Notes: generated from the sequence alone by a model not told the origin. A stretch of DNA of 64,000 bases from an uncultured Bacteroidota bacterium (GCA_963768715.1 CAVYJC010000002.1:272529-336528); one strand, 5' to 3'. Positions 25,384 to 62,490 are shown, counted from the first letter of the stretch. Numbers and translations are program-made.

Positions 25384-25418
25384 GGTGCTAGGTGCTGGGT
25401 GCTCGGTTCTGGGTGCGG
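25384..25418. repeat. Tandem heptamers (GGTGCTN x5) in the divergent SusC / FN3-gene intergenic region
   Basis: ggtgcta ggtgctg ggtgctc ggttctg ggtgcgg read directly from the sequence. Confidence 0.9.
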
Positions 25419-25587
25419 AGCCTGCCCGAACGAGTGAGTCGGAGGTTCCAAAACCATGCCTCAACGTGATCGATCTCGGAGAGGTACTCGGCGCTCGGTG
25501 CTCAGCTCGCATCGAGGCTGCAATCAGCATTGGGGGGTGCCGGGTTTCACGCGTTTTGAGTGCGTTGGACACACCTCAAGGTCAGTC

Positions 25588-25627
25588 GACCGGCAGACTG
25601 GCAGACTGGCCGACCGGCAGACCGGCG
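25588..25627. repeat. Tandem octamers (GACYGGCN x5) in the same intergenic region
   Basis: gaccggca gactggca gactggcc gaccggca gaccggcg read directly from the sequence. Confidence 0.9.
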
Positions 25628-25851
25628 CCCTCCACCGCGGCTACTAATTGCTGATTGCTGAAGAATTGCGATGAAGACCCGAAACGCAGCTTGCATATGC
25701 ACGTAATTCGGCGTTCCTTTTAGCATCAAACATACTCATGGGCGCGCCGTGAACGGGCGATCCGACCCCGATGTCGGTCCTGACGTTCGGAAGTGCAAGC
25801 AACCTGGAATCGCCCGTCACAACGAGTCCCACAACGTGACGGAGGTCATCC

Positions 25852-28389
25852 ATGAGCAGATTGTTTCGAATACTCAACCTGAGTACGACGGCCATTGTTG
25901 TGCTCGTTCTTTCCGGGGTGCTACAGTCTGCCGGCGCCCAGAATCTTGGCAAGCGCAGCGGTTACGGTACCAGCGGATACGTCTGCCCTTAAGGCGAAGC
26001 TCGAGCTGCGAAGCGCGATGCGACTCTCGAAGACGTCGTTGATTGTGCCGGACTCTTTGGCCAACACGGGGTTCGAGGACGATACGCTCCTGCTCGACCC
26101 GTGGGCGGTGATCGATTCCGGTAGCGGCTCGTGGTTCGTCCAGATGGACACGCTCTCGCCGGTAAATGGCAACCTGGTGCCCGAGCCGACTGAGGGGGAG
26201 CAGGCAGCCATGACGGATCAGGGCGATCCGGGAACTCACATCCTCTTCCAGGATGTGGCGCTTCTCAGTCCCCCTGCTACGATCGGATTGAAGTACGACA
26301 TGTACGTCCATAGTCATGCCGACTGGGTCGTCCCGTCAACCGGAACACTGAGCGCAAACGATACCGTGAACCAGCACGTAAGGGTCGACATCATGGACCC
26401 AAATGCGGAGGTGGACGACGTCGGTGCCGGTGTGTGGATGAACCTCTACCGTCCGGTGCCGATGGTCGATACAACCGAATCAGGTTACACGGAAATGTCG
26501 GCCGACCTGAGCGCATTTGCCGGACAGACGGTGCGGCTTCGGTTTGCGGAAGTCGACAACCAGGACGTTCTGAATTTCGGTGTCGATAACGTTCGATTGA
26601 TGCAGACGCCGATCCTTCCCGCGACGCCGACGCTGCTGACTCCGCTGAACGGGGCGACCGACATTCCGCTCGAAGGCGTGGAATTGAGGTGGTCGGCAGT
26701 GACGTATGCGAACAGGTACAATGTCCAGGTAGCCACCGATCCGGAGTTCAGCTCCATTATCTGGTCGACGAACGTCGGGGCACACCAAGTGGATTTCGTG
26801 CCTCCGGATCCTGGTGTAACCTACTACTGGCGTGCCCAGTCGGAGGGCGTGCACGGCAAGTCGAAGTTCAGCGCACCGTTCCATTTCACGACGGTGATGC
26901 CGATCCCGAACACGCCGACGCTGCTGACGCCGCTGAATGGCGCGACGGATGTCCCGAATACTGTAGAACTGCGGTGGACAGCAGAAGAGTGGGCCTTGCG
27001 TTACAACGTGCAGGTTGCAACGGATGCCGCCTTTACGGCACTCGTCATGTCGACCAACGTACCGGCTGATCAGGTCAGCTTCGTCGCGCCCGCACCGGGC
27101 GTGACCTACTACTGGCGGGCGCAGTCGGTCGGGCAGTTCGGTAATTCCACGTTCTCTGCGCCGTTCCACTTTACGACCGTGAACCCACGGCCTGATGTCG
27201 TGACCTTGGTCGCCCCGGCATTCGGGTCGATGGATCTCGAAAGCCCGGTTACGCTGGAATGGAACGCTGCGGCAAACGCCGACGAGTATCTTGTCCAAGT
27301 GTCTCAGGATTCGATGTTCGCCGATACGCTCTCGTCGCTCACGACGTCGAATCTGACGATGGATTTCGTTCCTCCGTTCGCCGGCGCGACGTACTACTGG
27401 CGGGTGAATGGCATGGGCCCAGGGGGATCGAGCCCAGGATTTTCGGACGTCTGGAAGTTCAGCGTAGCCGCCGAGGGATCGCTCGTGCCGATGGCGCTCT
27501 ATCCTGAAGATGGCGCGACCGGTGTCCCGGTCGAAGTTTCTCTGAAATGGGAAGCACCGACCACCGCTCCCGGCAATGACGAGGCTGTATCGAAGACGTT
27601 GGAGATTGCCTTCTATCACGTTCAGGTGGCGACGGACGAATCCTTTGAGGATATGGTCGTCGACCAGGACAGCGTGATGGCGGACAGCCTCCACGTGACC
27701 GGTCTGATGCACGAGACCGAATACTACTGGCGTGTCGCCGGCGTCGACGCTCAGGGGAACTTCACGTTCAACGAGCCGAGCAGCTTCACGACAGTCATTG
27801 CGGCGCCTGCAGCGGTCACGCTCACTCGCTCCTGCGAACGGTGCGACAGAGGTATCCGGTGCTCCGGAGTTCTCGTGGCAGGCCATCGCAGGAGCTACAG
27901 CGTATCAGCTGCAGGTTTCGAAGGAGAATGGCGTTCGCCAGTCCCGTCATCGACGAGGATGCGCTAACAGGCTACCACCTTCAAGTCAACAACGGCGCTG
28001 GACTACAACACAGGCTACTTCTGGCGGGTCCGTGCGATGAACGAAGGCGGATGGGGAGAATGGTCAGAAGTGCACAGCTTTATGACGCGCGACTGGAACG
28101 GCCATCGAAGACGACGTGATTCCGGCATCATACGCGCTGCATGACAACTATCCGAACCCGTTCAATCCAAGTCGACGACTATCGCGTCGACCTTCCGGAG
28201 GCGGCACCGTCAAGCTGACCGTCTACGACGTGGAGGGCCACGAAGTAATGGTCGTCGCTTCGGGTCCAGCGGCTGCCGGCCGTCACAGCTATACGGTCGA
28301 CGGCTCGAAGCTTTCGAGCGGCATGTATCTGTATCGGATTGAGTCAGCCAAATTCAAGAAGACGAAGACAGATGGTGCTTCTGAAGTAG
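25852..28389 (+). pseudogene. FN3-like-repeat T9SS protein, paralogue 1, interrupted by several frameshifts (pseudogene or indel-ridden assembly)
   Basis: GGAGG at 25841-25845, then ATG at 25852 encoding signal peptide MSRLFRILNLSTTAIVVLVLSGVLQSAGAQ in a different frame from the main ORF 25895..27967. The body has ~95-aa repeats (PTLLTPLNGATD...RYNVQVATD...TYYWRAQS...FHFTT). The 3' end runs through ORFs 27732..28040, 27841..28119 and 28116..28550. The CTD (NYPNPFNPS...MYLYRIESAKFKKTKT) needs further indels to read ...MVLLK* ending at 28389. Confidence 0.65.
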
Positions 28390-28417
28390 TCCGAAGTCCG
28401 GGGTCCGGAGTCCGGAG
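28390..28417. repeat. Tandem heptamers TCCGRRG x4 directly after the stop codon
   Basis: tccgaag tccgggg tccggag tccggag. The same motif follows the stops of paralogues 2 and 3. Confidence 0.9.
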
Positions 28418-28507
28418 TCATCTTGACGACGGCCCGACAGGCACCGAAGAGTGTGCCGCCAACTACGGACCTAATGGACGACGCGGTAGTGGTCGAGAGG
28501 CCAACCA

Positions 28508-28538
28508 GGGGACGGCTCGTCGAAAGGCGGGCCGTCCC
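28508..28538 (+). terminator. Conserved 3' hairpin of the FN3-like paralogues (terminator-like)
   Basis: GGGACGGCTCG tcgaaagg CGGGCCGTCCC, an 11-bp stem with one G-U pair, followed by TTTAG. The identical hairpin recurs at 32258 and 34098. Confidence 0.55.
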
Positions 28539-28540: not shown

Positions 28541-28643
28541 TAGTCATTAGACACTAGTCATTGGTCACTGGTTGGTCGTCAGTCATTAGTCATTGGTCAT
28601 TGGTCATTGGTCACTAGTCATTGGTCACTAGTCATTGGTCATA
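28541..28643. repeat. Heptamer-based low-complexity tract (GTCATTG / GTCACTA units)
   Basis: tagtcattagacactagtcattggtcactgg...gtcattggtcattggtcattggtcactagtcattggtcactagtcattggtcat. Confidence 0.9.
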
Positions 28644-28872: not shown

Positions 28873-29117
28873 CCGGTTTTTCGCACCTAAATCGAGGTAA
28901 CTAAGAGCAGCCCGTGGGGCACGCACCACCTCGTTCTAGCGAATGCGTAGATGATCTGGGGAGCTCCGCGCAGCAGAGCGCCGCGAACCAGGCGCATCCG
29001 AAACCTTCCATCTCTCAACAGATGTATCTCATCATGTATCAGAAAACAGTCTCTCCCAATCCACTTGACTTTCTTCACAACCTACACGTGTTCCTGCGCG
29101 TCCGACAACCTCTCCGC

Positions 29118-30160
29118 ATGATGTTCGTTGTCGCAGTAGCGACGGTTGCCATGCTGGTATCTGGTTGCGACAGTAGCGTCGCGCCGAGCGAGACACTGGA
29201 GGCGACCGGTAAGATCGAGACACTGGAGGCGACCGGTAAGATGGGGTCGGTGCCTGGCCCTCCCCAGCTGCTGGTAACGGGGCTGGAGGGCGCCTCCGGC
29301 AGCGCGATCGGCCCCGACGGTGCCCTGTTTGTCACCGAGGGTGCAGTAGGCAGGATCTCGCGCGTTGATCCAAAGACCGGCGACGTGACTACATTCGCCA
29401 GCGGGCTGCCGCCCTCGATCGTCGGGATCGGCGGTGTCATCGATGTCGCCTTTCTCGACGAAACAGCGTACGCGCTCGTTACGCTCGTAGGTCCTCAGTT
29501 TGGCAGCGAGCGACATCGTCGGCATCTATCGGATAGACGGACCCGACAGCCATACCGTCGTCGCCGACATTGGCGCGTTCTCCCTCGCCAATCCGCCGAC
29601 CACCCCGTTCTTCGTTGACATGGGTGTGCAGTACTCGATTCAGACGTATCGCGGCGGTTTCCTGGTCACGGATGGGCATCACAACCGCGTGCTGCACGTC
29701 ACACTCGACGGGGAGATCACCGAGTTCAAAACGTTCGATAATATTGTTCCGACAGGGCTCGCTCGTCTCTGGTAACACCGTATACATGGCCGAAGCGGGG
29801 CCTGTACCTCACCTCCCAGAGGACGGCATGGTGGTGTCGTTCGGTCAGAAGTCGGCGACGGTCACCAAAGTCGCTTCCGGTGCGCGGTTGCTTGTCGATG
29901 TTGAGTTCGGCCGCGGCCGGACCCTCTTCGCTCTTTCGCAGGGTGTCTGGGACGGCGTGGCGCCGGGTTCGCCGGCGGAGCCAAATACCGGCTCACTCGT
30001 AAGGGTAGGGGCAGACGGTACGCTCAGCGCGATCACCACCGAACTGGATCGACCCACCTCACTCGAGTTCATCGGGAACACGGCCTACATCGTTACGCTC
30101 GGCGGTGAAGTCTGGACCATCGACAACGTCGCTGCTCCGCCGTTCGGCGCCTTCCACTGA
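29118..30160 (+). pseudogene. NHL/ScyD-like beta-propeller lipoprotein gene interrupted by two frameshifts
   Basis: Lipoprotein signal MMFVVAVATVAMLVSGCDS at 29118. The reading continues through ORFs 28914..29618, 29500..29775 and 29570..30160 (GPDGALFVTEGAVGRISRVDPKTGDV..., GIYRIDGPDSHTVVADIG..., FLVTDGHHNRVLHVTLDGEI..., GNTAYIVTLGGEVWTIDN). Confidence 0.5.
29190..29243 (+). repeat. 27-bp tandem duplication (26/27 identical) inside the propeller gene
   Basis: gagacactggaggcgaccggtaagatc / gagacactggaggcgaccggtaagatg, encoding ETLEATGKI ETLEATGKM. Confidence 0.95.
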
Positions 30161-30572
30161 GTTGTTCCGAACAGCACATGGCGTCCTCCGCTCGGGCGTG
30201 GACGCACCTTCGACAGGCGGTCTGCCAAGTGGCGGGCCGCCTATGTCGGCAATTAGACTTCAGGGCATCCCGTGGGCTCGCTTGATCTTCGACTCCGTGG
30301 CATCGGTTTTCTCACTGCTATGCCATGGCGGCGCCACGTCACCACCTCTCTTGCGCTGATCAGCCTGCTGTTTGCCGTTCACTTGACGCGGGCCCAGACG
30401 GTCCGATTCGAGCACATCATCCTCCATCGGTGCGCTTACACTCATCGCCACACCTCCGGAGCACCAAAGAGCTCGTCGTACTCCGACAGTACTGGACGCG
30501 GTGTCTGGAGCCCTTAAACCTGGTAGCTCAACGGGGTCGGGACACGCAGGCTCTTGACAACGCAGGGCACCC

Positions 30573-30602
30573 TCGGACCTCGGACTTAGGACTTCGGACC
30601 TC
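30573..30602. repeat. Tandem heptamers TCGGACY x4
   Basis: tcggacc tcggact taggact tcggacc. Confidence 0.85.
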
Positions 30603-30793: not shown

Positions 30794-32135
30794 ATGAGCT
30801 TGAATCGAATCGACCAAAGCAGGTCTCTGCTTGGTCTTGACAATAGCTTTAGGTTTACCTATAGTATCAGCTACGACGATCGGTCGCGAATTCAAACGAG
30901 TCTGCGGCCATTTTCACAGCCCCGCTTCCCCCGACCTATTACTCTCCGGCGAACGGAGCCACAGGTGTTGTCATCGCCCGTGTTGAGTTGAAGTTCAACA
31001 ACGCTGTCCGGCGCGCTGCGCTACAACGTTCAGGTGGCAACGGACGCCGGTTTCACCCACGTCGTATATCACTTGAACGTGCCTCACACCCCGGTCGAGC
31101 TTTACCGCACCGACTGCGGGCGCCACCTATTATTGGCGCGTACAGACCGGTGGGATCCGACCGAGACCGGGACAATTCGGCGCTGCGTGGAAGTTCACCG
31201 ACTGCATTCCCCGGTGCTGGCCGCGCCGACGCTGTTGACGCCGCTTAAACAGCGCCTACGGCGTCCCGCTAAGTCCGTGACTGTTGCGGTTCACGACTTG
31301 TAACAGGGTGCAACCCGCTATAACGTCGAGGTATGCGACCGATCGAAGGCGTTCATCGACTATGGTGTTCAAGACAAACGTACGCGCACAGCCGCGGTAG
31401 ACGTTCACGGCTGACGAACGCCGGCTTGTTACTACTGGCGTGTTCAGGCGGTGGGAGCTTCATTCATCGTCTAAATACAGCGCAATATGGAGTTTACTCG
31501 AATGCGGAGCAGAGATCTTCCTTCGTTGAGCGCACCTGTGCTGCTGACGCCGCTTGAATGGATCAGATGAATCAGCCGGTCTCGGTTGAACTGCGCTGCG
31601 CAGCGAGATCGAAGGAGCCGTTCGCGGTACAACATTCAGGTGGCTTCCGATTATGCGTTCCGCAACATCCTGTGGAAGTAACCAACGTGCCGCGCTGCCA
31701 GGCCAGGTTCAACGGCAAGGCCGGCACGCACTACTACTGGAGAGCGCAGTCGGAGAGCATGACGGAATCCTCGCTCTTCTCGGCTGCCATTCGGGTTTAC
31801 GATGATCTCGACGTCGAAGCCTCGAGCTTGAGCTGCGCGTGAGCTCGTTCGATGCCGCAGAGACGATTCCGACATCGTACACGCTGCATGAAAACTACCC
31901 GAACCCGTTCAATCCGAGCACGACTATCATGGTCGACGTCCCGGAAGCGACGCACATCAAACTGGCGGTCTATGATCTGCTCGGACAGGAGGTCATTCAA
32001 ATCGCTGCAGGCGATGTCGAAGCGGGCACCCACAGCTACACGATCGACGCCTCCGGCCTCTCGAGTGGTCTGTACCTGTACCGGATCGAGTCGGCAGCCT
32101 TCACGCAGACAAGGCGAATGATGCTTCTGAAATAG
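30794..32135 (+). pseudogene. FN3-like-repeat T9SS protein, paralogue 2, heavily degraded (multiple frameshifts and in-frame stops); only the CTD is intact
   Basis: The conserved leader gtgacggag precedes the ATG at 30794. Recognisable repeat fragments are scattered over all three frames (LRYNVQVATDAGFTHVV, APTLLTPL, HYYWRAQSE). An intact CTD ORF lies at 31839..32135 (ENYPNPFNPSTTIMVDVPEATHIKLAVYDLLGQEV...GLYLYRIESAAFTQTRRMMLLK). Confidence 0.7.
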
Positions 32136-32163
32136 TCCGAGGTCCGGGGTCCGGGGTCCGGAG
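32136..32163. repeat. Tandem heptamers TCCGRGG x4 after the stop codon
   Basis: tccgagg tccgggg tccgggg tccggag. Confidence 0.9.
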
Positions 32164-32257
32164 TCCATCTTGAATGACGGGTCGACGGGCGACCGAAGGG
32201 CGTGCCGCTGATCCTTCGGACCTCAGGATGACCGGGTCGTAATCGAAAAGGCCACAA

Positions 32258-32287
32258 GGGACGGCTCGTCGAAAGGCGGGCCGTCCC
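32258..32287 (+). terminator. Conserved 3' hairpin (copy 2)
   Basis: gggacggctcgtcgaaaggcgggccgtccc, identical to 28508 and 34098; followed by TATTTAG and GTCATTG-type heptamers (32292..32342). Confidence 0.55.
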
Positions 32288-32643
32288 TATTTAGTCATTG
32301 GACACTGGTCATTGGTTCACTGGTGAGTCGTGTCATTAGTCGATTTCCAGCTGGAAGAGCGGCAACCTTCGTCATGATTCGACTGGACTCATGACGACAT
32401 CTGGGATCGGACATCGGACCTCAAATACGTGAAGTCTGCTCGAAGATTGCATTATCTGCCGCGTGGACATATTGATATTCGCTATTTGCATCGTTAAGGT
32501 ATTGTTACCCACCAGTTACTCATGGGCGCTCTTGACTCGATCGCGTCGAGCTCATCGTCCAAAGCCGAAGGGCGAGTAACTAACGACAAGTTCGGCGCGA
32601 ATCTTCCGTCCGGGGCGTCCCATCAAAATGACGGAGGATTACC

Positions 32644-33975: not shown

Positions 33976-34010
33976 GTCCAACGTCCGGGGTCCGGGGTCC
34001 GAAGTCCGTC
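33976..34010. repeat. Tandem heptamers GTCCNNN x5 after the stop codon
   Basis: gtccaac gtccggg gtccggg gtccgaa gtccgtc. Confidence 0.9.
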
Positions 34011-34097
34011 TTGAATGACGGGACGACAGGCGACAGAGGGAATGCCGCCGATCCTTCGGACCTCAGGCCGACCGGCACTTGGCCAAAAGCCGAACAA

Positions 34098-34127
34098 GGG
34101 ACGGCTCGTCGAAAGGCGGGCCGTCCC
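34098..34127 (+). terminator. Conserved 3' hairpin (copy 3)
   Basis: gggacggctcgtcgaaaggcgggccgtccc followed by CATTTAG. Confidence 0.55.
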
Positions 34128-34131: not shown

Positions 34132-34400
34132 TAGTCATTGGACACTGGACATTGGTCACTAGTGAGGTGTGGCAATCTACGCTGGATCCCTCTATCATGC
34201 TTCGGGACTCATGCACTGGGAGACCTCGGACATCGGACCCTACTAGTCATTGGACACTGGTCACTGGTCACTAGTGCGGTGTGGCGATCTACGCTGGATC
34301 CCCTCTATCATGCTTCGGGACTCACGCACTGGGAGACCTCGGACATCGGACCCTACTAGTCATTGGACACTGGTCACTGGGTGTCATTAGTCATTAGCGG
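34132..34400. repeat. Tandem repeat of a 112/113-bp unit (2.4 copies), itself starting with GTCATTG/GTCACTG heptamers and ending with GGACATC heptamers
   Basis: Units start at 34132, 34244 and 34357 (tagtcattggacactgg...ggtgtggc[a/g]atctacgctggatccc...gggagacctcggacatcggaccctac). Copies differ at a handful of positions. Confidence 0.9.
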
Positions 34401-34405: not shown

Positions 34406-34674
34406 TGCACAATGAAAGTGACCGGTCTTGTGCGCAAATGTGACGCCATAACCCTTGCCCGACCGTTATTAATCCCAGGCATGAATGCCCGGACTTAGTA
34501 TGGCGCCCCGTAAACGGGGCTTCGCCGCGGGCCCGCCGGAGAAGGCCGGTTTACCGGCCGCTGCTCCAAGGCCGGTCGTCTACGGCCGGCTGAGGAAATA
34601 ACCAGATGGTCTATTTTCTGAGTTACGTGACTTGGCCCATGCCCATGAGTTCGAGCGGTCACTTTCATTGTGCA
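34406..34674. mobile_element. 269-bp non-coding element bounded by perfect 19-bp inverted repeats (MITE-like, or a long-stem structured RNA)
   Basis: TGCACAATGAAAGTGACCG at 34406..34424 and its exact reverse complement CGGTCACTTTCATTGTGCA at 34656..34674. The interior is GC-rich with several local hairpins (ccccgtaaacgggg, ccggtttaccgg). GTCATTR-type heptamer tracts lie on both flanks, as if the element split one tract. Confidence 0.5.
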
Positions 34675-34772
34675 GACAGCTATTGGGCATTGGGTACTAG
34701 TCGTTAGTCACTCTACGGCTGAGGCACAGGGAGCGGAAGTGCCTTTGGCAAACGCCCAGACTGCCTCAAGAC

Positions 34773-34807
34773 GGACATCGGACATCGGACCTCGGACATC
34801 GGACCCT
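34773..34807. repeat. Tandem heptamers GGACMTC x5
   Basis: ggacatc ggacatc ggacctc ggacatc ggaccct. Confidence 0.9.
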
Positions 34808-34867
34808 GCTTGTCACCAGACGTTCGACCTTGCCCTTGGAGGTTCCGCGGGCGATCTTTTCCATGAC

Positions 34868-35878: not shown

Positions 35879-35961
35879 ATCCGGCAGGTCATGTCAAAGT
35901 GTCGTCGCCTCGCGACCACACACTATGACAGGTTCTGCGTCATCCCAATGACTAGTGTCTG

Positions 35962-37932
35962 ATGACTGACGTCCGTGACCCTCTTCTCAGAATTTCGTGG
36001 TATTGTCTGACTGCAAGCCAGTCAACCATCGATGGGAAGCAAGACCATGAAATATTTGTCACGTTTGTCCATTCCGGCGTCATCACTTTGGCTAGAGTGT
36101 ATCTGCTCGCTGGGTTGTTGCCGGTCACGAGCGCCTTCGGGCAGAACGGGCATGTGTACTGGACGGAGTCGCAGGGTGGAAAGATTACCCGGGCCGAACT
36201 CGACGGGTCGAATGCCCTCGATATTGTTAAGGCTACGTTTGTGCTTGCCCAAGGCATGGCCATCGACGCGGAGGCGGGCAAAGTGTACTGGACCGACAAC
36301 GGTACCCAGAAGGTTCAACGCGCAAACCTGGACGGAACGGACATCGAAGACCTGTTCGTGGGAGAACACGCGCAGCTGGGCATGGCGATCGATCTAATCC
36401 ATGGGCATATGTACTGGGAAAACGGCGCGGAGATTTGGAGGGCCAATCTCGACGGAACCGACGCCGATTCCGTCCTTGCTCTCGAAGGTCCGTTCTATTC
36501 CGGAATCTTCGATATTGCACTGGACGTCGACGGCGAGAAAATGTACTGGGCGGTTGGAAAGAAGGTCCAGCGTTCCAACCTGGATGGGACCGGTGTTGAA
36601 GACGTCATCGTTTCAGACGGAACATCTATTCCACGGCATGTTGCCCTCGATGTCGCCGCGGGTAAGCTCTACTGGACTAATAACCAGTCGCAAATCAAAC
36701 GCGCCAATCTCGATGGATCAGACCCTGAAGACTTCTTCTCTGACTCGTACGGCAAGAACGGTCTCGGCGTGGATCCACGGGCGGGTAAACTCTACTGGAC
36801 CAGCACCGATTCTAAGATCAGGCGCTCGAATCTGGATGGAACCGACGTCGAGGAGGTTGGAACGACAACCCGTTACCCGTTCGCGTTTACGCTTGATCCA
36901 CTGAACAATCGAATGTACTGGACGACCTCACGTGCCATTCAGCGCGCACATCTTGACGGCTCTGACGTCCAAGATCTGATCACCACTCCTGTTGCTGAGC
37001 CACAGCAGCTTTCTGTTGACAAGGTGAACGGCAAGTTGTACTGGATCGATGGTTACGGCCGCATGATCCAGCGAGCCAACCTCGACGGTACTGACATCGA
37101 GGATGTCATCGTCTTGCCATCAAATCCCAGATCCATGACGATAGATGATGGGAAGATCTACTGGGTGTACGGAAGCCACATGTACCGAGCCAATCTCGAC
37201 GGCACCGAAACAGAGGACCTCGTTTCCGGCCTGGGGTTCGTTACTGGCCTGGTGCTCGATCTGCGGAACGCAAAGCTGTACTGGATCATCAGCGGCAAAA
37301 TTCAGCGCGCCAACCTCGACGGCACTGTGGTCGAGGATGTGTTGACGGATTTGTCAGGTCCGAGTGGCCTGGCGATTGACCTGGAGAACGACCTCATCTA
37401 CTGGGGTAGGACTGGAGGTATCCAGCGCGCCGGCCTAAATGGAGGCGCTGTCGAAGACGTTGTCGGCGACCTGAGTCTTCCCTATGCGCTTGCAGTAGAT
37501 ACAGATGGAGGCAAGTTGTATTGGACAGATATTAATAGAAACAAGGTTCAGCGTGCCAATCTTGACGGATCAGAGATCGAAGATCTCGCGACGGAGTTGC
37601 AGAGTCCGTGGGGGATCGCCCTCGATCAGGCAATGAGTACGGCGGTGCAGGATGATATTTCGATCCCCCAGGAGGTTACTCTCGAGCCAAACTATCCCAA
37701 TCCTTTCAATCCTGCGACGACTTTAGCGTACGATCTGCCCGACGCAGCGAACGTCAAGCTCGTCGTCCTCGATGCGCTGGGCCGGGTCGTCGAGTCATTA
37801 GTCAATGGTCATCAGTCATTGGGCCAACACGCGGTTCGGTGGGACGCAACAGGAGTACCGAGTGGCGTCTATTTCTACCGGCTGGAGGCAGACGGCTTCG
37901 TCAAGACGCGGTCGATGCTATTGGTGGAATGA
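35962..37932 (+). CDS. T9SS-secreted protein with 12 YWTD (LDL-receptor class B-like) blades, i.e. two 6-bladed beta-propellers
   Basis: Twelve ~43-aa units of the form G.KLYWTD....IQRANLDGTD.EDL., then CTD EPNYPNPFNPATTLAYDLPDAANVKLVVLDALGRVV...GVYFYRLEADGFVKTRSMLLVE. The start is uncertain: the best signal peptide needs MKYLSRLSIPA (ATG at 36047, other frame) joined to ITLARVYLLAGLLPVTSAFGQ, implying another 1-nt indel near 36075-36085. Confidence 0.75.
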   Translation: MTDVRDPLLRISWYCLTASQSTIDGKQDHEIFVTFVHSGVITLARVYLLAGLLPVTSAFGQNGHVYWTESQGGKITRAELDGSNALDIVKATFVLAQGMAIDAEAGKVYWTDNGTQKVQRANLDGTDIEDLFVGEHAQLGMAIDLIHGHMYWENGAEIWRANLDGTDADSVLALEGPFYSGIFDIALDVDGEKMYWAVGKKVQRSNLDGTGVEDVIVSDGTSIPRHVALDVAAGKLYWTNNQSQIKRANLDGSDPEDFFSDSYGKNGLGVDPRAGKLYWTSTDSKIRRSNLDGTDVEEVGTTTRYPFAFTLDPLNNRMYWTTSRAIQRAHLDGSDVQDLITTPVAEPQQLSVDKVNGKLYWIDGYGRMIQRANLDGTDIEDVIVLPSNPRSMTIDDGKIYWVYGSHMYRANLDGTETEDLVSGLGFVTGLVLDLRNAKLYWIISGKIQRANLDGTVVEDVLTDLSGPSGLAIDLENDLIYWGRTGGIQRAGLNGGAVEDVVGDLSLPYALAVDTDGGKLYWTDINRNKVQRANLDGSEIEDLATELQSPWGIALDQAMSTAVQDDISIPQEVTLEPNYPNPFNPATTLAYDLPDAANVKLVVLDALGRVVESLVNGHQSLGQHAVRWDATGVPSGVYFYRLEADGFVKTRSMLLVE

Positions 37933-37933: not shown

Positions 37934-38038
37934 GTCCGTCGTCCTGGTCCGGGGTGCGGGGTCGTCGGAAGGCCGGGCGTTGATCGATGATCGATGGTCG
38001 GTGATCGGCGCCCGGTGACCAGTGTCCGGTGACTACTG
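37934..38038. repeat. Convergent intergenic spacer composed entirely of ~15 phased degenerate heptamers
   Basis: ...tccgggg tgcgggg tcgtcgg aaggccg ggcgttg atcgatg atcgatg gtcggtg atcggcg cccggtg accagtg tccggtg actactg. One phase is kept from the stop at 37932 to the stop at 38039. Confidence 0.8.
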
Positions 38039-41072: not shown

Positions 41073-41166
41073 CGACCGACGGACATGCCTGACGGCACCT
41101 GCATGGGTCTACCGTTCGACCGACGGACATGCCTGGCGGCACACGGACATGCCTGGCGGCATGTCC
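41073..41166. repeat. Direct repeats of CGACCGACGGACATGCCTGRCGGCAC (2.7 copies); the last copy forms a perfect 9-bp hairpin
   Basis: Copies at 41073..41098, 41117..41142 and 41143..41161. Hairpin GGACATGCC tggc GGCATGTCC at 41145..41166. Located in the divergent oxidoreductase / LacI intergenic region. Confidence 0.85.
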
Positions 41167-41223
41167 CTACGTCGGCATGCCGGACAACGCCGACGGCATC
41201 GGACCGGACATCGACTGGCGGCA

Positions 41224-41286
41224 CACCGAACACCAAACACCAAACATCGAACACCGAACGTCGAACACCGAACGTCGAACACCGAA
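41224..41286. repeat. Tandem heptamers CAYCRAA x9
   Basis: caccgaa caccaaa caccaaa catcgaa caccgaa cgtcgaa caccgaa cgtcgaa caccgaa. Confidence 0.9.
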
Positions 41287-41294
41287 CCATTCTG

Positions 41295-41308
41295 TCGAAT
41301 CGATTCGA
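41295..41308. promoter_or_regulatory. Perfect 14-bp palindrome TCGAATCGATTCGA (candidate LacI-family operator)
   Basis: Read directly from the sequence; CG-centred dyad about 120 nt upstream of the LacI-family gene. Confidence 0.4.
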
Positions 41309-41357
41309 TACAATATCGAAATTGCTGGCTTTCCGATCTCATTTAGTTAGTCATGTG

Positions 41358-41403
41358 TTGACATGTCGAAAGCGCTTTCGTAGGTTATCGAAGCGTTTCG
41401 ATA
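41358..41403 (+). promoter_or_regulatory. Putative promoter (TTGACA at 41358-41363) overlapped by two CG-centred palindromes (candidate LacI-family operators)
   Basis: CGAAAGCGCTTTCG (41367..41380, perfect 14 bp) and TATCGAAGCGTTTCGATA (41386..41403, 18 bp with one mismatched pair). They resemble the generic LacI/CcpA operator architecture (TGnAAnCGnTTnCA-like). The -10 candidate TAGGTT 17 nt after TTGACA is weak. Confidence 0.45.
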
Positions 41404-41428
41404 ATTTTCGCTCTTCTTCCTTCGCGCT

Positions 41429-54963: not shown

Positions 54964-55794
54964 ATGTCTAGAAATCGGATGTCCCTTCCCCGCCTGCTCG
55001 CATACCTCGCCCTCGTGCTCGGCGCCGTGGTCTTCGCCTATCCGTTTATCTGGATGGCCCTCGCCACGCTGAAGCCTGAGGTCGAGCTCAGCAATTTGAA
55101 TGTCTTTCCGAGGCAGTGGTCCCTCGAAAGCTACGCTGTCGTCTTTCGGAATATCCCCATCGAACGTGCGTTCCTGAACAGCGCCGTCCTTGCCCTCTTC
55201 GTCACGACCTCGGCGCTCGTCTTCGGATCGATGGCCAGCTACTCGCTCTCCAAGCTGAAATGGAAGGGGCGAGACGCAGTCTTCACGCTGATACTGTTCA
55301 CGATGATGGTCCCGTTCCTCGTGCTCTTGATCCCCCTGTACACGCTGGTCGTCCGTTTCGGCTGGACCGACTCACTGGCCGGACTGGCCATCCCGTTCAT
55401 GATGAACGCGACGGTCGTGCTCATCCTTCGCCAGAGCTTCCTCAGCATACCCCAGGATCTTCTCGACGCGGCAAGAATCGACGGTTCGGGGGAGCTGAGA
55501 ATCCTGTTCACGATCGTTTGGCCGCTCTCCGTTCCGGCCCTCGTCACGGCGGGAATCATCGTGTTTCTCGGAAACTGGAACGAGGTGCTCTGGCCGCTCA
55601 TGGTGGTACGAGAGGAGCACTGGATGACCATGCCGCAAATGGTGACCCTGTTTTCCGTCGGCGGAGGAGCCGAGGGCAAGCTGGGGCCGCGACTCGCTGC
55701 CGCCCTGCTGCTGGCGCTGCCGGTGATCGTCGCCTACATGCTCTTCCAGAAACGGTTTATATCGAGCCTCGCATCAACGGGATTGAAGGGATGA
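54964..55794 (+). CDS. Carbohydrate ABC transporter permease (MalG-like)
   Basis: 276 aa with EAA loop LDAARIDGSGELRILFTIVWPLSVPAL. Confidence 0.85.
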   Translation: MSRNRMSLPRLLAYLALVLGAVVFAYPFIWMALATLKPEVELSNLNVFPRQWSLESYAVVFRNIPIERAFLNSAVLALFVTTSALVFGSMASYSLSKLKWKGRDAVFTLILFTMMVPFLVLLIPLYTLVVRFGWTDSLAGLAIPFMMNATVVLILRQSFLSIPQDLLDAARIDGSGELRILFTIVWPLSVPALVTAGIIVFLGNWNEVLWPLMVVREEHWMTMPQMVTLFSVGGGAEGKLGPRLAAALLLALPVIVAYMLFQKRFISSLASTGLKG

Positions 55795-55827
55795 AGATGG
55801 CAGATGGAAGATGGAAGATGGAAGACT
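55793..55827. repeat. Tandem heptamers GMAGATG x5 starting within the permease stop codon
   Basis: gaagatg gcagatg gaagatg gaagatg gaagact. Confidence 0.9.
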
Positions 55828-58930: not shown

Positions 58931-60021
58931 GTCTACGGTCCATAACCGACGGTCCGGCTGTCAAGGTCGAGCGTCTCAACGATGGAAACCCCGTTCTCGA
59001 GGCGATGCCCGAGAATGATTGGGAAAGCCGGGTCGTTCTCAACCCTGCAGCAGTACTCCTACCTGCCGACCCAAGGTTGGACGGTCTCATGGACGCCTGG
59101 TCACTCGACGGCGACCAGAAGCAGATACTGGACTGGGCCGACGGGGCCTGTGTCATGATATATCGTGCTCAAGGCCCGATTCCCGAAGACTCAGACGTCG
59201 CCCCATCGAGTCTGGGATTGGCCGTTCTCACGCCCGATCTGGAACTGGTGAAGAGGTGGCCGACCCCGATCGTGTCCCCGGATGAGAACTTTCACAACCT
59301 CGGCGTCGAGGATCCGCGCATCACGTGGGCCGACGGGGCCTGGCACATGTACTACGCAGGTTATTCGGGTGATCCTCGCGCCGGAGTACCGAATCGGCGC
59401 ATCCAGATCTGCCATGCAGAGACTGCCGATTTTATCAACTGGTCGCTCAGCGGTCCGATCACAGGACGGCTGAACAGCGTTCCCAACAAGAACGCGGCTC
59501 TCCTTCCCTCTCCCGTGCGGGACCGGTGGATCCTGCTCCATCGGCCCATGGAAGGCCCGGATGCAATGGCCATTCATCTGGCCGCGAGTGAGTCACCGGC
59601 CGGCCCGTGGGAACCGGCGGGCGTTCTATTCAAATCGTACGTATATCAGGAGTTCGAGCGTTCATGGGTCGGAGCCGGCGGACCACCGATCCATCTGGAT
59701 GGGAATCGTTTCCTCATGATTTACCATCAGGGACATTTCGATAAGAATGGCCGGCGCGAATACGATCTGGCCGCCGCGCTGCTGGATCTCGATGAGGACG
59801 ATCCCGTTATGAGCCGAATCGAGCCCTTGATGCGGCCGACCGGCGATCTTGAGCGGTCGGGTGATCCCGAAGTAGGCGTCGACAACGTGCTTTTCACGTG
59901 CGCCAACTACGTATTCGGAGATGACCTGATCATTCCCTACGCCGGCGCCGACAGCCGGATCTTCGGTGCGTCGGTCCCTGTCGACGATCTACTTTCGGAA
60001 CTCGATCGTCACGCGGGCTGA
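58927..60021 (+). CDS. Second GH130-family protein
   Basis: 364 aa with a 4-bp overlap with the previous gene. LNPAAVLL, GVEDPRITWADGAWHMYYAGYS, NKNAALLPSPVRDRWILLHRP, FLMIYHQG...YDLAAALLDLDEDDP, LIIPYAGADSRIFGA. Confidence 0.7.
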   Translation: MSLRSITDGPAVKVERLNDGNPVLEAMPENDWESRVVLNPAAVLLPADPRLDGLMDAWSLDGDQKQILDWADGACVMIYRAQGPIPEDSDVAPSSLGLAVLTPDLELVKRWPTPIVSPDENFHNLGVEDPRITWADGAWHMYYAGYSGDPRAGVPNRRIQICHAETADFINWSLSGPITGRLNSVPNKNAALLPSPVRDRWILLHRPMEGPDAMAIHLAASESPAGPWEPAGVLFKSYVYQEFERSWVGAGGPPIHLDGNRFLMIYHQGHFDKNGRREYDLAAALLDLDEDDPVMSRIEPLMRPTGDLERSGDPEVGVDNVLFTCANYVFGDDLIIPYAGADSRIFGASVPVDDLLSELDRHAG

Positions 60022-62490
60022 CCCGCTGCCAAGTGACGTACGAACTGTAGTCCGCTGGATACCGTCCCCGAGATCACTGCTCGACTTGTCTCGAATGACA
60101 ACGCCGGCCCCCGACGCTTTGACACGCCGGATTTGGGTGGGACTGATGACCTGAACGGTCGCCGTACCGTCCGAAGCTCCACGCAGATCGATATCGAGTC
60201 TCCGCCGCTTGGCATCGTAGGAGACGCCTTCGACGATGGCGTCCACTCGCTCGAGATAGGGCATATCCGGCCGTCCCCGAACCAGGTTGATGTCGGATGC
60301 TGGTCCCACGATCACGGCCGAGTACTGACGTTCGCCATCCGCCGATATTTCCTTGAAATACGGCCCGCTTCCGCTCCATTGTACGTGAGCCGAACGTCCC
60401 GCAACCGTTACGTCGTACGACGCATCCTCGAATCCGTGCGGAAGGTTCGCGTCGAAACGGATGTTCCATTCGTTCTCCCTCACGCCGCCAAGCTTGTAGA
60501 GAACCGACAAATACCATCCCCCCGCCCAGAGAAACGTGGTTTTGTCGAGTTCGCCGTACGCCGGCGAGTCCTTGTCGGTGCGGCGGTACTCGTACAATGC
60601 CGGCTGTCCACCCGGACTGTTCGCAATCCCATCCAGCGTATAGAACTTGCGGATGGCGGCAAGCGCACTGTCGGGTTCGTTGGATGCGAGGAGCGCCATG
60701 GCATACCAGGCATTGCCATGAGGCCACACGCCTCCGTTGATGTAACGACCGGGGAGTCCGGCCTCCAGCCCGATGAATCGGTAGCGCTCGATCAGTTCGT
60801 TGAAATCAGTCGGGACGACGGTCCGCAAACCGATTTCCGGATCCAAGAGCTTCGTTCGGGCCGTTTCCAACATGACCTGTTTTTTCTCGTCATCGATTTG
60901 ATCGAACACGGCCGCGAGCAGCGAGCCCATGTACAGGTGGTGATCGACCTCGCCGTTGTCGAGCTCGCTCAGCAGGAAGCCGGCCTTGTCGTCCCATAGC
61001 CGCGTCACCATATTCTCCTGCAGCTGGTCTGCAAGCGCCATGTACTCAGACAGGCGTGGCTCCTGCCTGTGGAGAACGGCCGTCAGGAAGCCGAACGTGC
61101 GGATCGCGCGAATGGTCAAGATGGTCAGGTAGGCCTTGGGTCCGTACACGTCGCCGATGTCCCACCAGTCCGGCTCCGAACCCTGCATGATCCCGTCCTT
61201 GTAGTTCTCGAGCATCAACTCGAGGCTCTTGGAGACCATTGGGTAGAGGCGGGCGACGAGCGCCGTATCGGCACTGTGCCGGAGGTAGGACCCCGTCAGC
61301 AGGATGAACCACAGGTGGTTCCAGTTGTCGCTTCCGGCCATCTCGCTGACGTACTTCCCGTCCCGCCAGTAGCGGGCGTGGGTGAGCACGTGGTCGCCTG
61401 TGTCGAAATGAAGGATATAGCGCAGATCATCCCGGACGGTCTTGGGATCAAACTGAACCACGCCCCGATCGGTCAGCAGCAGGTCGTGCGTGAAGAAGAA
61501 GTTGTATTGGGCGGGGCACGGCATCGGCACGATATGCCCTTCGAGCGGGTGCCGGTTGGCCTGCTGGATGGCCTTCGACCAGCGAGCCGTTTCGACCAAC
61601 GCGGAGTCATCGACAGAGAACGTCGAGGCGTCGACGAAGTCGGCCACGCGCTGTTCGAACGCGTTGACATCGTCGCGCCAGCTGCGTGCGAGCGCGCTGG
61701 ACGATATCTGTAACTTGCTGTCTCCGACTCGAGCCGATGATCTGGATGACCTGGAGTGTATCTCCCGGATCCAATTGTTTCGAATACACAAACTCGGCAG
61801 ACGGATCCTTGACCAGCCCCGCCATGTCCCCGGTCGCTTCCGGCATCACTCCGAAGTTTGCGACGAACACCGTCGCGGAATCGGTGTCCGCCGCATCGAA
61901 ATCCGCCCGGTAGGCTGAACCATCGTCTGAATAGCGCACGCTTGCGGAGTCGCGCCACGTGTAAGCATGTGACGTCCGCAGCGTCGTTTCGAGACCGGTC
62001 GACAACATCACGTCGAGCGGATGATCGGAAACGTTGGTCACATCGACTTGGAGGATCATCACGGGAAGCGTCTCACCGAAGCGGTAGCTGACCTTCACCT
62101 CGTGCGTGGGAGCCACTCCGGTATATTCTACATTCGCCGGCGTCCATTCGTACGGGAGCGAGGCCCGACTCAGGTCTTCATGTCTTCCGTCGACGGTCAG
62201 GTAGAGATACAACGGCATGGACTGATCGCGCTCCCAGTAGTCGGTGCTGAGATCGATGCTGTTGGCAACAGGATAGTAGAAGCTGATCCGGGACGGCGCC
62301 GGACGGCTGTGGTGGAACTCGAGACCGACGAAAGGTCCGCCCACCTGGAGCTGGCCCTGGAGGCCGTCGTAGGTCTTCGTGAGATCCGCGAGCGGCGAGG
62401 AAGGATTTTGGGCGTGGACGGCGTCGACGGTACAGGACAGAACAGACAGCAGACAGCAGACAGCAGACAGTAGGAATCGAGAGCAGACAT
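59989..62490 (-). CDS. (alpha/alpha)6-barrel glycosidase-like protein (amylo-alpha-1,6-glucosidase/GDE_C-like catalytic domain), with a frameshift at ~61725-61735 and its ATG out of frame across a heptamer repeat
   Basis: ORFs 59989..61791 (INGGVWPHGNAWYAMALL, FLWAGGWYLSVLYKLGG) and 61607..62344 (beta-sandwich N-domain). The upstream frame reads ...LLSAVCCLLSVLSCTVDAVHAQNPSS (signal-peptide-like) but has no start. The ATG at 62490 is in another frame (MSALDSYCLLSAVCCLFCPVP...). Confidence 0.65.
62443..62470. repeat. Four perfect tandem heptamers CAGACAG (CTGTCTG on the coding strand) inside the signal-peptide coding region of the gene above
   Basis: cagacag x4 read directly from the sequence, flanked by degenerate copies (acaggacagaa). 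Confidence 0.95.

What the first reader, a model, noticed from the sequence alone, without database searches (positions are those of the whole stretch)
25384..62470. Intergenic regions are littered with tandem heptamer tracts, each tract built from its own 7-nt word
Seen in sequence: at least 14 tracts of 4-15 tandem 7-nt units, each with 1-2 variable positions.
- GGTGCTN (25384)
- TCCGRRG directly after stop codons (28390, 32136, 33976)
- GTCATTG/GTCACTA (28541, 32292, 34132, 34683)
- TCGGACY (30573)
- GGACMTC (34773)
- a whole 105-nt spacer (37934)
- CAYCRAA (41224)
- GMAGATG (55793)
- CAGACAG (62443)
- one 8-mer tract, GACYGGCN (25588)
They sit at gene ends, in divergent promoter regions and in convergent spacers.

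Established knowledge: the best-known precedent is the STRR heptamer family of heterocystous cyanobacteria. I know of no description in T9SS/SusCD-bearing lineages.

Inference: the strict 7-nt period with word-specific tracts argues for a replication-slippage or templated process with a preferred unit length. The tracts could modulate transcription termination or promoter spacing, or provide hypermutable spacers.
Basis: partly seen in the sequence, partly recalled or inferred. Interest (0 to 1): 0.65.

Follow-up and report, generated by a model that had tools for sequence, protein, structure and literature searches.

The report
Tandem heptamer repeats between Rhodothermales genes
The spaces between genes in this salt-marsh Rhodothermales genome really are packed with tandem 7-base repeats, a known but unexplained kind of bacterial repeat (as in cyanobacteria), and here they use a few shared words that lie in a fixed orientation and often form hairpin arms just after genes.

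Summary
Ten strong period-7 tracts occur against 0 in shuffles, and no other period from 2 to 20 is enriched. All lie in the about 11% of the window that is non-coding, and independent assemblies contain them.

The kind is known: heptanucleotide long simple-sequence repeats (cyanobacterial STRR; Mrázek 2007; MacGregor 2015, who described them in Bacteroidetes). The organism is a Rhodothermales MAG.

"Each tract has its own word" is only partly right.
- Two families dominate: GTCCGNN/NNCGGAC, and GTCAYTR/YARTGAC, which matches the STRR2 word.
- Three of the "after-stop" tracts are paralogous copies of one gene 3' end.
- The same words sit at the same places in relatives with 61-64% protein identity.
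- Both families occur in many phyla and in viral contigs.

New here:
- Inverted tract pairs have a fixed polarity, with the GTC-reading array 5' in 27 of 28 loci.
- The variable positions of the two arms co-vary, and the pairs fold into long hairpins.
- In one window gene the after-stop tract is the 5' arm of a 3'-UTR hairpin. RNA contigs from two metatranscriptomes end just past it.

Best reading: slippage-grown arrays that extend intergenic hairpins. Any function at mRNA 3' ends is inferred. Interest is moderate.

The parts
25384..25416 (+). GGTGCTN x4.7, in the divergent region between the SusC-like gene (start 25231, minus strand) and the fn3/T9SS gene. A strain breakpoint lies 18 nt upstream, at 25365.
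25588..25626 (+). GACYGGCN x4.9, the only 8-nt tract. A minor ATTGCTG x2 follows at 25647-25661.
28388..28419 (+). GTCCGRR x4.6, starting in the stop codon TAG (28387-28389) of fn3/T9SS paralog 1. That gene carries a 1-nt frameshift just before the stop.
   Evidence: (D14)
28541..28642 (+). GTCAYTR x about 14, directly after the conserved 30-nt hairpin 28509-28538.
   Evidence: (D1, D2)
30571..30602 (-). CTCGGAC x4.6, which reads GTCCGAG on the minus strand. It is the complement family of 28388.
   Evidence: I2
32135..32166 (+). GTCCGRG x4.6, starting at the stop codon of the degraded paralog 2 (about 30794-32135).
   Evidence: (D14)
32292..32420 (+). Composite unit: GTCAYTG x about 4.5 (32292-32324), then a core of about 70 nt with an inverted repeat, then TCGGACM x about 3 (32398-32420).
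33976..34006 (+). GTCCRRN x4, directly after the stop of gene 32644-33975. It forms the 5' arm of a 3'-UTR hairpin spanning 33975-34085. It is covered by RNA contigs that end at 34092/34093.
34098..34127 (+). 30-nt hairpin GGGACGGCTCGTCGAAAGGCGGGCCGTCCC. It is 100% identical at 28509-28538 and 32258-32287. It separates the GTCCGRG part from the GTCAYTR part of each 3' flank.
34132..34397 (+). 113-nt unit x2.2. Each unit is GTCAYTR x4, a 60-nt core and TCGGACM x2-3. GTCATTA x2 follows.
   Evidence: D8, D19
34406..34675 (.). MITE-like element of 270 nt with 20-nt terminal inverted repeats, lying inside the GTCAYTR tract. Word depth in metagenome contigs is 10-20 times that of the flanks. This is context, not a tract.
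   Evidence: (I8)
34683..34806 (+). Composite unit: degenerate GTCRYTR x4 (34683-34711), a hairpin core, then CGGACMT x5 (34772-34806). It ends 62 nt upstream of the TPM-domain gene start (34868).
35945..35967 (-). CCAATGACTAGTGTCTGATGACT, which is GTCAYTR x3 on the minus strand. It lies at the start of gene 35962-37932 and is conserved in L121.
   Evidence: (I4)
37793..37822 (+). GTCAYTR-like tract, 27 of 30 identical to 28581-28610. It lies in frame inside the T9SS C-terminal domain CDS and is kept in L121.
   Evidence: (D2)
37934..37969 (+). GTCCGNN x5, including one 6-nt unit, directly after the stop of 35962-37932. This is the first half of the 105-nt convergent spacer.
37981..38038 (-). 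CGRTGAY x8, which reads GTCAYYG on the minus strand. It follows the stop of the minus-strand gene 38039-39655. This is the second half of the convergent spacer.
   Evidence: (I6, I7)
41145..41166 (.). REP-like palindrome GGACATGCC-N4-GGCATGTCC, with partial copies at 41075-41144. It shares the word CGGACAT with the 34772 tract. Three perfect copies occur in relative L122, each beside a heptamer tract.
41223..41287 (+). CRAACNN x9.3, abutting the palindromic operator-like site TGTCGAATCGATTCGATA upstream of the LacI-family gene (41429). A tract is conserved at this place in L122 and L125.
55793..55825 (+). GMAGATG x4.7, overlapping the stop codon (55792-55794) of the ABC permease gene. The X2 strain diverges exactly at 55825.
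62443..62501 (+). CAGACNN x about 8, which reads GTCTGNN on the minus strand. It lies between two minus-strand genes.

Best explanation
The tracts are heptanucleotide long simple-sequence repeats of the STRR/LSSR kind, in a Rhodothermales genome.

Origin (inferred). They arise and turn over by strand slippage in non-coding DNA, with an optimum unit length of 7. They are often seeded from a neighbouring palindrome arm or operator half-site: CGGACAT from GGACATGCC...GGCATGTCC, and TCGAAC from TGTCGAATCG.

Arrangement (shown). They are not private words. Two families dominate, GTCCGNN/NNCGGAC and GTCAYTR/YARTGAC. They follow one rule: the GTC-reading array lies 5' and its complement 3'. A transcript arriving from either side therefore meets the GTC-reading array right after the stop codon. 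Where both arrays are present they pair into a long hairpin around an inner stem-loop. The arrays thus act as extendable arms of intergenic hairpins.

Effect (inferred from one gene and from placement). These hairpins define or protect mRNA 3' ends and insulate neighbouring genes. Array length and the two variable positions drift by slippage and are kept complementary between the arms.
For: Shown:
- Period-7 specificity and intergenic location.
- Elsewhere too, period 7 dominates the extra tandem tracts near seeded tracts: 138 of 177 in genome loci, 51 of 125 in metagenome loci, and 7 of 8 in Rhodothermales relatives.
- The same families recur at non-paralogous sites in the window.
- Relatives with 61-64% TPM-protein identity carry them at the same places. 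A GTCC-type tract follows the TPM stop in L121, L122, L123, L125 and L126, and a CGAACNN tract abuts the LacI operator in the window, L122 and L125.
- Turnover between strains at 91% identity. Three of five units changed AT/CT to GA inside otherwise identical flanks. The three largest indels in 6.3 kb (22, 8 and 6 nt) all lie in tracts.
- Polarity. The GTC-reading array is 5' in 16 of 17 metagenome loci (p = 2.7e-4), in 7 of 7 genome loci for family B, and in 4 of 4 viral-contig loci.
- The variable dinucleotides match between arms at 0.82. When arms are re-paired between loci the value is 0.54, and 0 of 5000 permutations reached 0.82.
- Paired tracts fold with z-scores from -4 to -14.
- In the window, the tract after the stop of 32644-33975 is the 5' arm of a hairpin (z = -4.8). 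The three paralogous flanks share that structure.
- RNA contigs from two metatranscriptomes cover the stop and the tract. They end at 34092 and 34093, in the single-stranded linker just 3' of that hairpin.
- After-stop orientation favours GTCAYTR 31:14 (p = 0.016).
Against: - Several window tracts have no visible partner (GGTGCTN, GMAGATG, CAGACNN, the 8-mer).
- The unit 34683-34810 does not fold better than shuffles (z = 0.12).
- The window's own A-family pairs (32135/32398 and 33983/34220) do not match at the variable positions.
- The three-paralog alignment shows no compensatory changes.
- The hairpins are not followed by U-runs as a rule, so they are not classical intrinsic terminators.
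- The RNA evidence is two contigs, one of them probably a single fragment, from Logan assemblies. It concerns one gene only.
- For family A the after-stop orientation bias is not significant with a looser window (13:6).
- Loci in the polarity test may be related to each other, so the effective sample is smaller than 28.
- Slippage itself was not observed. No clean ±7-nt allele series was seen.
Confidence: 0.55

Rival explanations
1. Neutral or selfish by-product. The tracts are only slippage-prone junk that accumulates wherever selection is weak. Hairpins, placement after stops and conservation are side effects of where non-coding DNA exists. The tracts have no role in expression.
For: - Many different words, and period 7 whatever the word.
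- The densest tracts lie in a strain-variable stretch with frameshifted paralogs, a MITE and a 113-nt duplication.
- The window lost the after-TPM tract without obvious consequence.
- No function has been established in the papers I could read since the 1990 Calothrix report they cite (PMC4692102, PMC4679880).
Against: - The strict polarity of inverted pairs (27 of 28 loci) and the arm-to-arm co-variation need either selection for pairing or a dedicated copying mechanism.
- A tract is kept at the same place next to the LacI operator in three lineages with 61-64% TPM-protein identity.
- There is an orientation bias after stop codons.
Confidence: 0.25
2. Parts of mobile intergenic elements. The tracts are carried or targeted by small non-autonomous elements (MITE, REP-like palindromes moved by a transposase), which would explain shared words at many loci and across phyla.
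For: - Composite units [GTCAYTR]n-core-[TCGGACM]n recur at 32292, 34132, 34245 and 34683.
- A 270-nt element with terminal inverted repeats sits inside a GTCAYTR tract. A second copy elsewhere also abuts such a tract (joint 28618/34468).
- Tract words have 10-fold excess depth in metagenome contigs.
- REP-like palindromes lie beside tracts in the window and in L122.
- Both word families occur in viral contigs, 65 and 79 stretches.
Against: - No transposase or RAYT-like domain appeared among the 30 window proteins scanned with Pfam.
- No target-site duplications were seen.
- Tracts at orthologous places in distant relatives argue for vertical persistence.
- Single-word tracts such as GMAGATG have no element-like flanks.
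Confidence: 0.1
3. Arrays of binding sites for a protein. Candidates are a regulator, a nucleoid protein, or a single-strand RNA/DNA binder reading a GTC-phased heptad. Examples would be decoy half-sites for the LacI-family repressor, or an S1/Csp-type binder as MacGregor proposed for TAACTGA.
For: - Five fixed plus two variable positions per unit (CGGAC+NN, CGAAC+NN, CAGAC+NN).
- The CGAACNN tract shares TCGAA with the adjacent operator and is conserved in place.
- The fixed polarity could reflect a strand-specific reader.
Against: - There are too many unrelated words for one protein.
- No candidate gene co-occurs in the window.
- Nothing was tested biochemically.
- Three units span 21 nt, which is two helical turns, but this is numerology without data.
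Confidence: 0.07
4. Phase-variation (contingency) loci. Changes in unit number switch expression of adjacent surface or T9SS genes.
For: - 7-bp promoter repeats do this for hmw1A in Haemophilus (PMC8262952, seen in the list).
- Several flanking genes here encode T9SS-secreted surface proteins.
- Tracts are the indel hot spots.
Against: - Most tracts lie after stop codons, not in a CDS or between promoter elements.
- Seven is not a multiple of 3, yet the one in-CDS tract is fixed at 30 nt and conserved.
- The organism is a free-living sediment bacterium. Mrázek's survey, as I recall its abstract (the paper was not held), links 5-11 nt repeats to non-pathogens.
Confidence: 0.02
5. Assembly or sequencing artefact.
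For: Contigs often break at the tracts.
Against: The same tracts appear in independent assemblies and in runs from different studies.
Confidence: 0.01

Closest known systems
STRR (short tandemly repeated repetitive) heptamers of heterocystous cyanobacteria. Three tandem heptanucleotides were reported in Calothrix PCC 7601, as cited in PMC4692102. The words CCCCART, TTKGTCA and CAACAGT are from my memory of Mazel et al. 1990.
   Same: Tandem 7-nt units, several words per genome, intergenic, sometimes as inverted pairs. GTCATTG is a rotation of TTGGTCA. The scan for GTCAYTR x3 hit mostly Nostoc, Calothrix, Scytonema and Microcoleus.
   Different: The lineage is Rhodothermota, with 58% G+C. The commonest word here (GTCCGRG) is G+C-rich and is not one of the three STRR words as I recall them. 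The polarity rule and arm co-variation were not mentioned in the papers I could read.
Long simple-sequence repeats of 5-11 nt (Mrázek, Guo and Shah 2007, PNAS 104:8472), as summarised in PMC4679880 and PMC4692102
   Same: Heptanucleotides are the most abundant class. They are mostly intergenic and occur in free-living bacteria with large genomes. Slippage with a polymerase-related 7-nt preference was proposed.
   Different: That survey treats tracts as independent SSRs. Here, words recur, are conserved in place across relatives, and are organised in polar inverted pairs.
TAACTGA and other heptamer arrays in Beggiatoaceae, cyanobacteria and five Bacteroidetes (MacGregor 2015, PMC4679880)
   Same: Heptamer arrays in FCB-group bacteria (Gramella, Aequorivita, Elizabethkingia, Flexibacter, Paludibacter), mixed words within one spacer, indels in 7-nt steps between close strains, and contigs ending in arrays.
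   Different: TAACTGA lies mainly 1-43 nt upstream of start codons in forward orientation, and a translational role was proposed. Here the main families begin at stop codons or lie far upstream of promoters.
GGGAATC repeats of Xanthomonas and GGGGAYT repeats of Nostoc (Rehm et al. 2015, PMC4692102)
   Same: About 180 intergenic heptamer tracts per genome with two variable positions, length and sequence variation between close species at the same intergenic places, and some inverted pairs in convergent spacers.
   Different: Those tracts are G-quadruplex formers. The window tracts have at most two G3+ runs, so they do not meet a four-run G4 motif (sequence).
REP/BIME palindromic elements of enterobacteria (from my own knowledge: 3'-UTR hairpins that protect upstream mRNA from 3' exonucleases, moved by RAYT transposases)
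   Same: It works like this: mosaic intergenic modules just after stop codons, hairpin-forming, many copies, with an RNA end just 3' of the hairpin.
   Different: REPs are single imperfect palindromes of about 35 nt, not tandem heptamers. No RAYT was seen. Membership was not established.

Membership tests
Heptanucleotide LSSR / STRR-type repeats | Head-to-tail copies of a 7-nt unit, four or more copies, longer than chance allows | tested here: met
   TRF. Ten tracts against 0 in 20 shuffles.
Heptanucleotide LSSR / STRR-type repeats | Period 7 favoured over neighbouring unit lengths | tested here: met
   Window: 10 tracts at period 7, 1 at period 8, 0 at periods 2-6 and 9-13. Relatives: 7 of 8.
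Heptanucleotide LSSR / STRR-type repeats | Predominantly intergenic | tested here: met
   All 10 strong tracts lie in the 10.6% non-coding fraction. There is one in-CDS exception.
Heptanucleotide LSSR / STRR-type repeats | Several different words within one genome | tested here: met
   At least 7 word types in the window.
Heptanucleotide LSSR / STRR-type repeats | Length polymorphism in whole units between strains | tested here: inconclusive
   The largest indels (22, 8 and 6 nt) lie in tracts, and units are replaced in blocks. No clean ±7 series was seen. Logan contigs break in the tracts.
REP/BIME-type palindromic elements | Imperfect palindrome forming a hairpin, placed in 3' UTRs or between genes | tested here: met
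   Hairpins with z from -4 to -14. Tracts start at stop codons.
REP/BIME-type palindromic elements | Associated RAYT (Y1/HUH) transposase and conserved 5' tetranucleotide | not tested
   No such domain appeared among the 30 window proteins scanned. The rest of the genome is not available.
Intrinsic (Rho-independent) terminators | G+C-rich stem-loop followed directly by a U-run | tested here: not met
   The terminator scan found no more sites than in shuffles (14 against 13.0). Flanks of 27 tract hairpins have no T bias, and only 3 have T-runs.
Phase-variation contingency SSRs | Tract inside a CDS or between -35 and -10, so that unit changes switch expression | tested here: not met
   Tracts begin at stop codons or lie at least 60 nt upstream of starts. 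The LacI-side tract lies upstream of the operator and the TTGACA box.
G-quadruplex heptamer repeats (GGGAATC type) | Four or more runs of G3+ separated by short loops | tested here: not met
   The GTCCGRG tracts have at most two GGGG runs (sequence).
MITE (for the element 34406-34675 only) | Terminal inverted repeats, small size, many copies, target-site duplication | tested here: inconclusive
   Terminal repeats match at 20 of 20 and 19 of 20 nt to one 20-nt query and are 95% complementary over 22 nt. Depth is 10-20 fold higher. No duplication is visible at the ends.

The most novel reading that the evidence does not exclude
Heptamer arrays are the extendable arms of a cross-phylum class of polar intergenic hairpins. 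The form is (GTC-type heptad)n, an inner stem-loop, then (complementary heptad)n. The GTC-reading array is always 5', and the two variable positions are copied between the arms. Such hairpins occur in contigs from many environments and in viral contigs, and the two word families range from Rhodothermales through cyanobacteria and planctomycetes. This would imply a dedicated mechanism, either hairpin-templated array growth or a factor that reads phased GTC heptads on single strands. It would give the 35-year-old STRR puzzle a concrete, testable function at transcript 3' ends.
Probability: 0.25. Interest if true: 0.75.

Novelty: new member of a known kind. Interest (0 to 1): 0.45.

Why it matters
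Tandem heptamers are the commonest long simple repeats in many free-living bacteria. They have been used for cyanobacterial fingerprinting for decades, yet nobody knows why the unit is 7 or what the tracts do.

This window adds three things:
- The phenomenon extends to Rhodothermota.
- The same word families recur across phyla.
- Paired tracts obey a strict polarity with co-varying arms, and they sit where transcripts end.

These regularities turn a descriptive oddity into experiments: 3'-end mapping, array deletions and binding assays in Nostoc or a cultured Rhodothermales strain.

There are also practical points. The tracts break short-read assemblies. They mark strain breakpoints at 25365 and 55825. 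They inflate ORF calls, because spurious ORFs run through them.

Tried and rejected
- The TPM-protein scan of GTDB species genomes found no relative. The exact-protein look-up of a window protein also found nothing. The lineage was named through a protein search instead.
- Rfam found no family for the window, for the densest 6.7 kb at E up to 1, or for nine related loci.
- Classical terminators are rejected: the scan equals the shuffles and there is no U-run rule.
- After-stop orientation for family A looked strong at one setting (11:2, derived from the list) but is not significant with a 60-nt window (13:6). I report it as weak. Only the family B bias (31:14) and the pair polarity hold.
- The three-paralog structure alignment shows no compensatory pairs, so covariation is not shown inside the window.
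- The composite unit 34683-34810 has no fold signal (z = 0.12).
- I first read the L121 convergent-spacer tract as 7 units against 4 in the window. Phasing the units by eye on the alignment gives 8 in each, so this is not a copy-number difference.
- RNA contigs are almost absent over 35-46 kb.
- Mrázek 2007 and Rasmussen and Svenning 1998 are not held. I cite them through PMC4679880 and PMC4692102. A search for 'TTGGTCA' plus 'STRR' returned only unrelated papers. A search for heptamers in Rhodothermales, Salinibacter or Rhodothermus found nothing.
- The idea that heptamers provide stop codons in all three frames is rejected. It holds for TGATCGA and GTCACTA but not for GTCCGGG, CGGACAT, CGAACAC or CAGACAG (by eye).

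Full report

A self-match scan required at least 85% identity to the base 7 nt away over 21 nt. It finds 10 tracts at period 7, one at period 8 and one at period 20. It finds none at periods 2-6, 9-13 or 15-19. Twenty dinucleotide-preserving shuffles gave none at any period apart from one stray tract at period 13.

All ten lie in the 10.6% of the window that I curated as non-coding.

The tracts are not assembly artefacts. An independent NCBI MAG contig (L121, 91% identical) has the same tracts. Contigs from other sequencing runs span several of them.

**Organism and setting.** The window holds SusC/SusD-like, TonB-dependent, ABC sugar-transport, LacI-family and many T9SS-sorted genes.

The closest protein relatives are labelled Rhodothermales bacterium, at 97% and 64% identity. 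That order belongs to the phylum Rhodothermota in the FCB group. The runs that hold the sequence are salt-marsh, saline-soil and sediment metagenomes.

**Anatomy.** The words are not private to each tract.

- Family A is GTCCGNN and its complement NNCGGAC. It occurs at 28388, 30571, 32135, 32398, 33976, 34220, 34333, 34772 and 37934.
- Family B is GTCAYTR and its complement YARTGAC. It occurs at 28541, 32292, 34132, 34245, 34358, 34683, 35945, 37793 and 37981-38038.
- In the convergent spacer, the window reads CGGTGAC/CAGTGTC where strain L121 reads CAATGAT/CGGTGAT. So the 'TGATCGA' tract belongs to family B.
- CGAACNN (41223) and CAGACNN (62443) differ from CGGACNN only by G/A transitions.
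- GGTGCTN, GMAGATG and the 8-mer stand alone.

Three after-stop tracts, three GTCATTG tracts and a 30-nt hairpin that is 100% identical in all three copies belong to one duplicated 3' flank. That flank follows three paralogous fn3/T9SS genes. This lowers the number of independent tracts.

The tracts also form composite units of the type [GTCAYTR]n, a 60-nt core, then [TCGGACM]n. One such unit is a 113-nt tandem duplication.

**Relatives.**

- A GTCC-type tract starts right after the TPM-gene stop in L121, L122, L123, L125 and L126. The window has lost it through a 22-nt gap.
- In L122 this tract pairs with an inverted CCGGACN tract 110 nt downstream (-114 kcal/mol, z = -7). A REP-like palindrome, GGACATGCC-N5-GGCATGTCC, lies in the loop. 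The same palindrome lies beside the LacI-side tract in the window and in L122.
- A CGAACNN tract abuts the conserved operator-like palindrome upstream of the LacI-family gene in the window, L122 and L125. The core is fixed and the last two positions are free.
- Between the window and L121, three of five units upstream of the TPM gene changed together inside identical flanks. The three largest indels in 6.3 kb all lie in tracts.

**Beyond the lineage.**

About three quarters were cyanobacteria, which fits the STRR2-type word.
- The rest included Mucilaginibacter, Lewinellaceae, Bacteroidia, Porphyromonadaceae, Pirellulales, Victivallales, Acidobacteriota, Polyangiaceae, Chloroflexota and Gemmatimonadaceae.
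- CGGACNN x4 also reached 120 metagenome contigs, with G+C from 0.34 to 0.75.
- Both words occur in viral contigs, in 65 and 79 stretches.
- Around these seeds, further tandem tracts are mostly period 7 with many other words.

There is thus a word-independent preference for 7, plus a few recurrent words.

**Polarity and pairing.**

- Where a family A tract and its complement lie within 300 nt, the GTCCG-reading tract is 5' in 20 of 21 pairs, or 16 of 17 loci (p = 2.7e-4).
- Family B pairs are GTCA-first in 7 of 7 genome loci.
- An independent viral-contig sample gives 4 of 4 loci.
- This arrangement reads the same on both strands, so it cannot be a search bias.
- The variable dinucleotides of the two arms match at 0.82. 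Re-pairing arms between loci gives 0.54, and 0 of 5000 permutations reached the observed value.
- The pairs fold into 30-40 bp stems around an inner stem-loop.
- The rule explains the window's layout. GTC-reading tracts follow stop codons on either strand. GAC-reading tracts precede the TPM and LacI genes.
- Caveat: the loci may be related, so the effective sample is smaller than it looks.

**RNA.**

- The tract after the stop of 32644-33975 is the 5' arm of a hairpin (z = -4.8).
- A 357-nt contig in metatranscriptome X4 covers 33735-34092.
- An adapter-flanked fragment in X15 covers 33956-34093.
- Both end in the single-stranded linker between this hairpin and the conserved 30-nt hairpin.
- Another X4 contig starts at 32559, 85 nt upstream of the start codon.

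So the tract is transcribed, and a discrete RNA end lies just past its hairpin. This is thin evidence: one gene, assembled contigs, strand unknown.

**Mechanism.**

*Shown:* period-7 specificity, recurrence of words, conservation of place, turnover within tracts, polarity, arm co-variation, folding, and one RNA end.

*Inferred:*
- The tracts grow by slippage.
- They are seeded from neighbouring palindromes or operator half-sites.
- They serve as extendable hairpin arms that define or protect mRNA 3' ends.

From established knowledge, loops of five or more nucleotides escape mismatch repair, so long-unit slippage products persist. Why the optimum is 7 remains open. Mrázek's polymerase-contact idea has not been tested.

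*Rivals:* a pure by-product, mobile-element cargo, protein-binding arrays, and phase variation. They are weighed in their own sections of this report.

**Comparison and novelty.** This is the known class of heptanucleotide long SSRs. The precedents are STRR, Mrázek 2007, MacGregor 2015 (PMC4679880) and Rehm 2015 (PMC4692102).

It is a new lineage (Rhodothermota). I found no paper on heptamers in Rhodothermales.

The papers I could read do not mention the polarity rule, the arm co-variation or the cross-phylum sharing of two word families. These points would need whole-genome confirmation before being claimed as new.

**Verdict.** Interest is moderate (0.45), with a more novel reading at about 25% probability.

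Noticed in passing
window 34406-34675: A 270-nt MITE-like element with 20-nt terminal inverted repeats (TGCACAATGAAAGTGACCGG) lies inside a GTCAYTR tract. Its word depth in metagenome contigs is 10-20 times that of the flanks. A second copy elsewhere also abuts a GTCAYTR tract (joint 28618/34468).
   Followed up: partly
window 25854-28389 and 30794-32135: Two of the three paralogous fn3-repeat/T9SS-sorted genes look broken. Paralog 1 is split between frames and has a 1-nt insertion just before its stop. Paralog 2 has many frameshifts. Only 32644-33975 is intact, and it is the copy with RNA contigs.
   Followed up: partly
window 39908-41048: The GFO/IDH/MocA oxidoreductase gene is split into two ORFs (171 and 202 aa). 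Relatives L121, L122, L124 and L125 have one gene of 366-376 aa. This is either a frameshift or an assembly error.
   Followed up: no
window 25365 and 55825: Other strains in runs X1 (minor form), X2 and X5 diverge completely at 25365, which is 18 nt before the GGTGCTN tract. The X2 strain also diverges exactly at the end of the GMAGATG tract. Relatives have DUF2089-LemA upstream of the TPM gene, whereas the window has the repeat-rich stretch. The region from 25.4 to 34.8 kb therefore looks like a strain-variable island bounded by tracts.
   Followed up: partly
window 37793-37822: A GTCAYTR-type tract, 27 of 30 identical to 28581-28610, sits in frame inside the T9SS C-terminal sorting domain and encodes SLVNGHQSLG. 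It is conserved in L121 with one T to C change.
   Followed up: partly
window 28509-28538, 32258-32287, 34098-34127: A 30-nt hairpin is 100% identical in three paralogous 3' flanks whose surroundings are only 65-87% identical. This suggests either conversion or a dispersed element.
   Followed up: partly
window 41075-41166; L122 7-28, 3946-3968, 8164-8185: A lineage-specific REP-like palindrome, GGACATGCC-N4-5-GGCATGTCC, always lies next to heptamer tracts. In the window it forms a perfect 20-nt tandem duplication at 41123-41161.
   Followed up: partly
window 41288-41428: Two palindromic operator-like sites (TGTCGAATCGATTCGATA and TCGAAGCGTTTCGATAA) and a TTGACA box upstream of the LacI-family gene are conserved in L122 and L125.
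   Followed up: no
window 29189-29242: A perfect 27-nt tandem duplication (9 codons x2) lies near the start of an ORF with no Pfam match (28914-29618). That ORF and 29570-30160 may be one frameshifted gene.
   Followed up: no
L241 778-912; L125 3410-3450: The loop of one family A hairpin holds a further array, GTCAGAR. A relative has an 8-nt array, CAAGTCTG/CAAGTCTA, like the window's single 8-mer. GTC-containing words seem common in these arrays.
   Followed up: no
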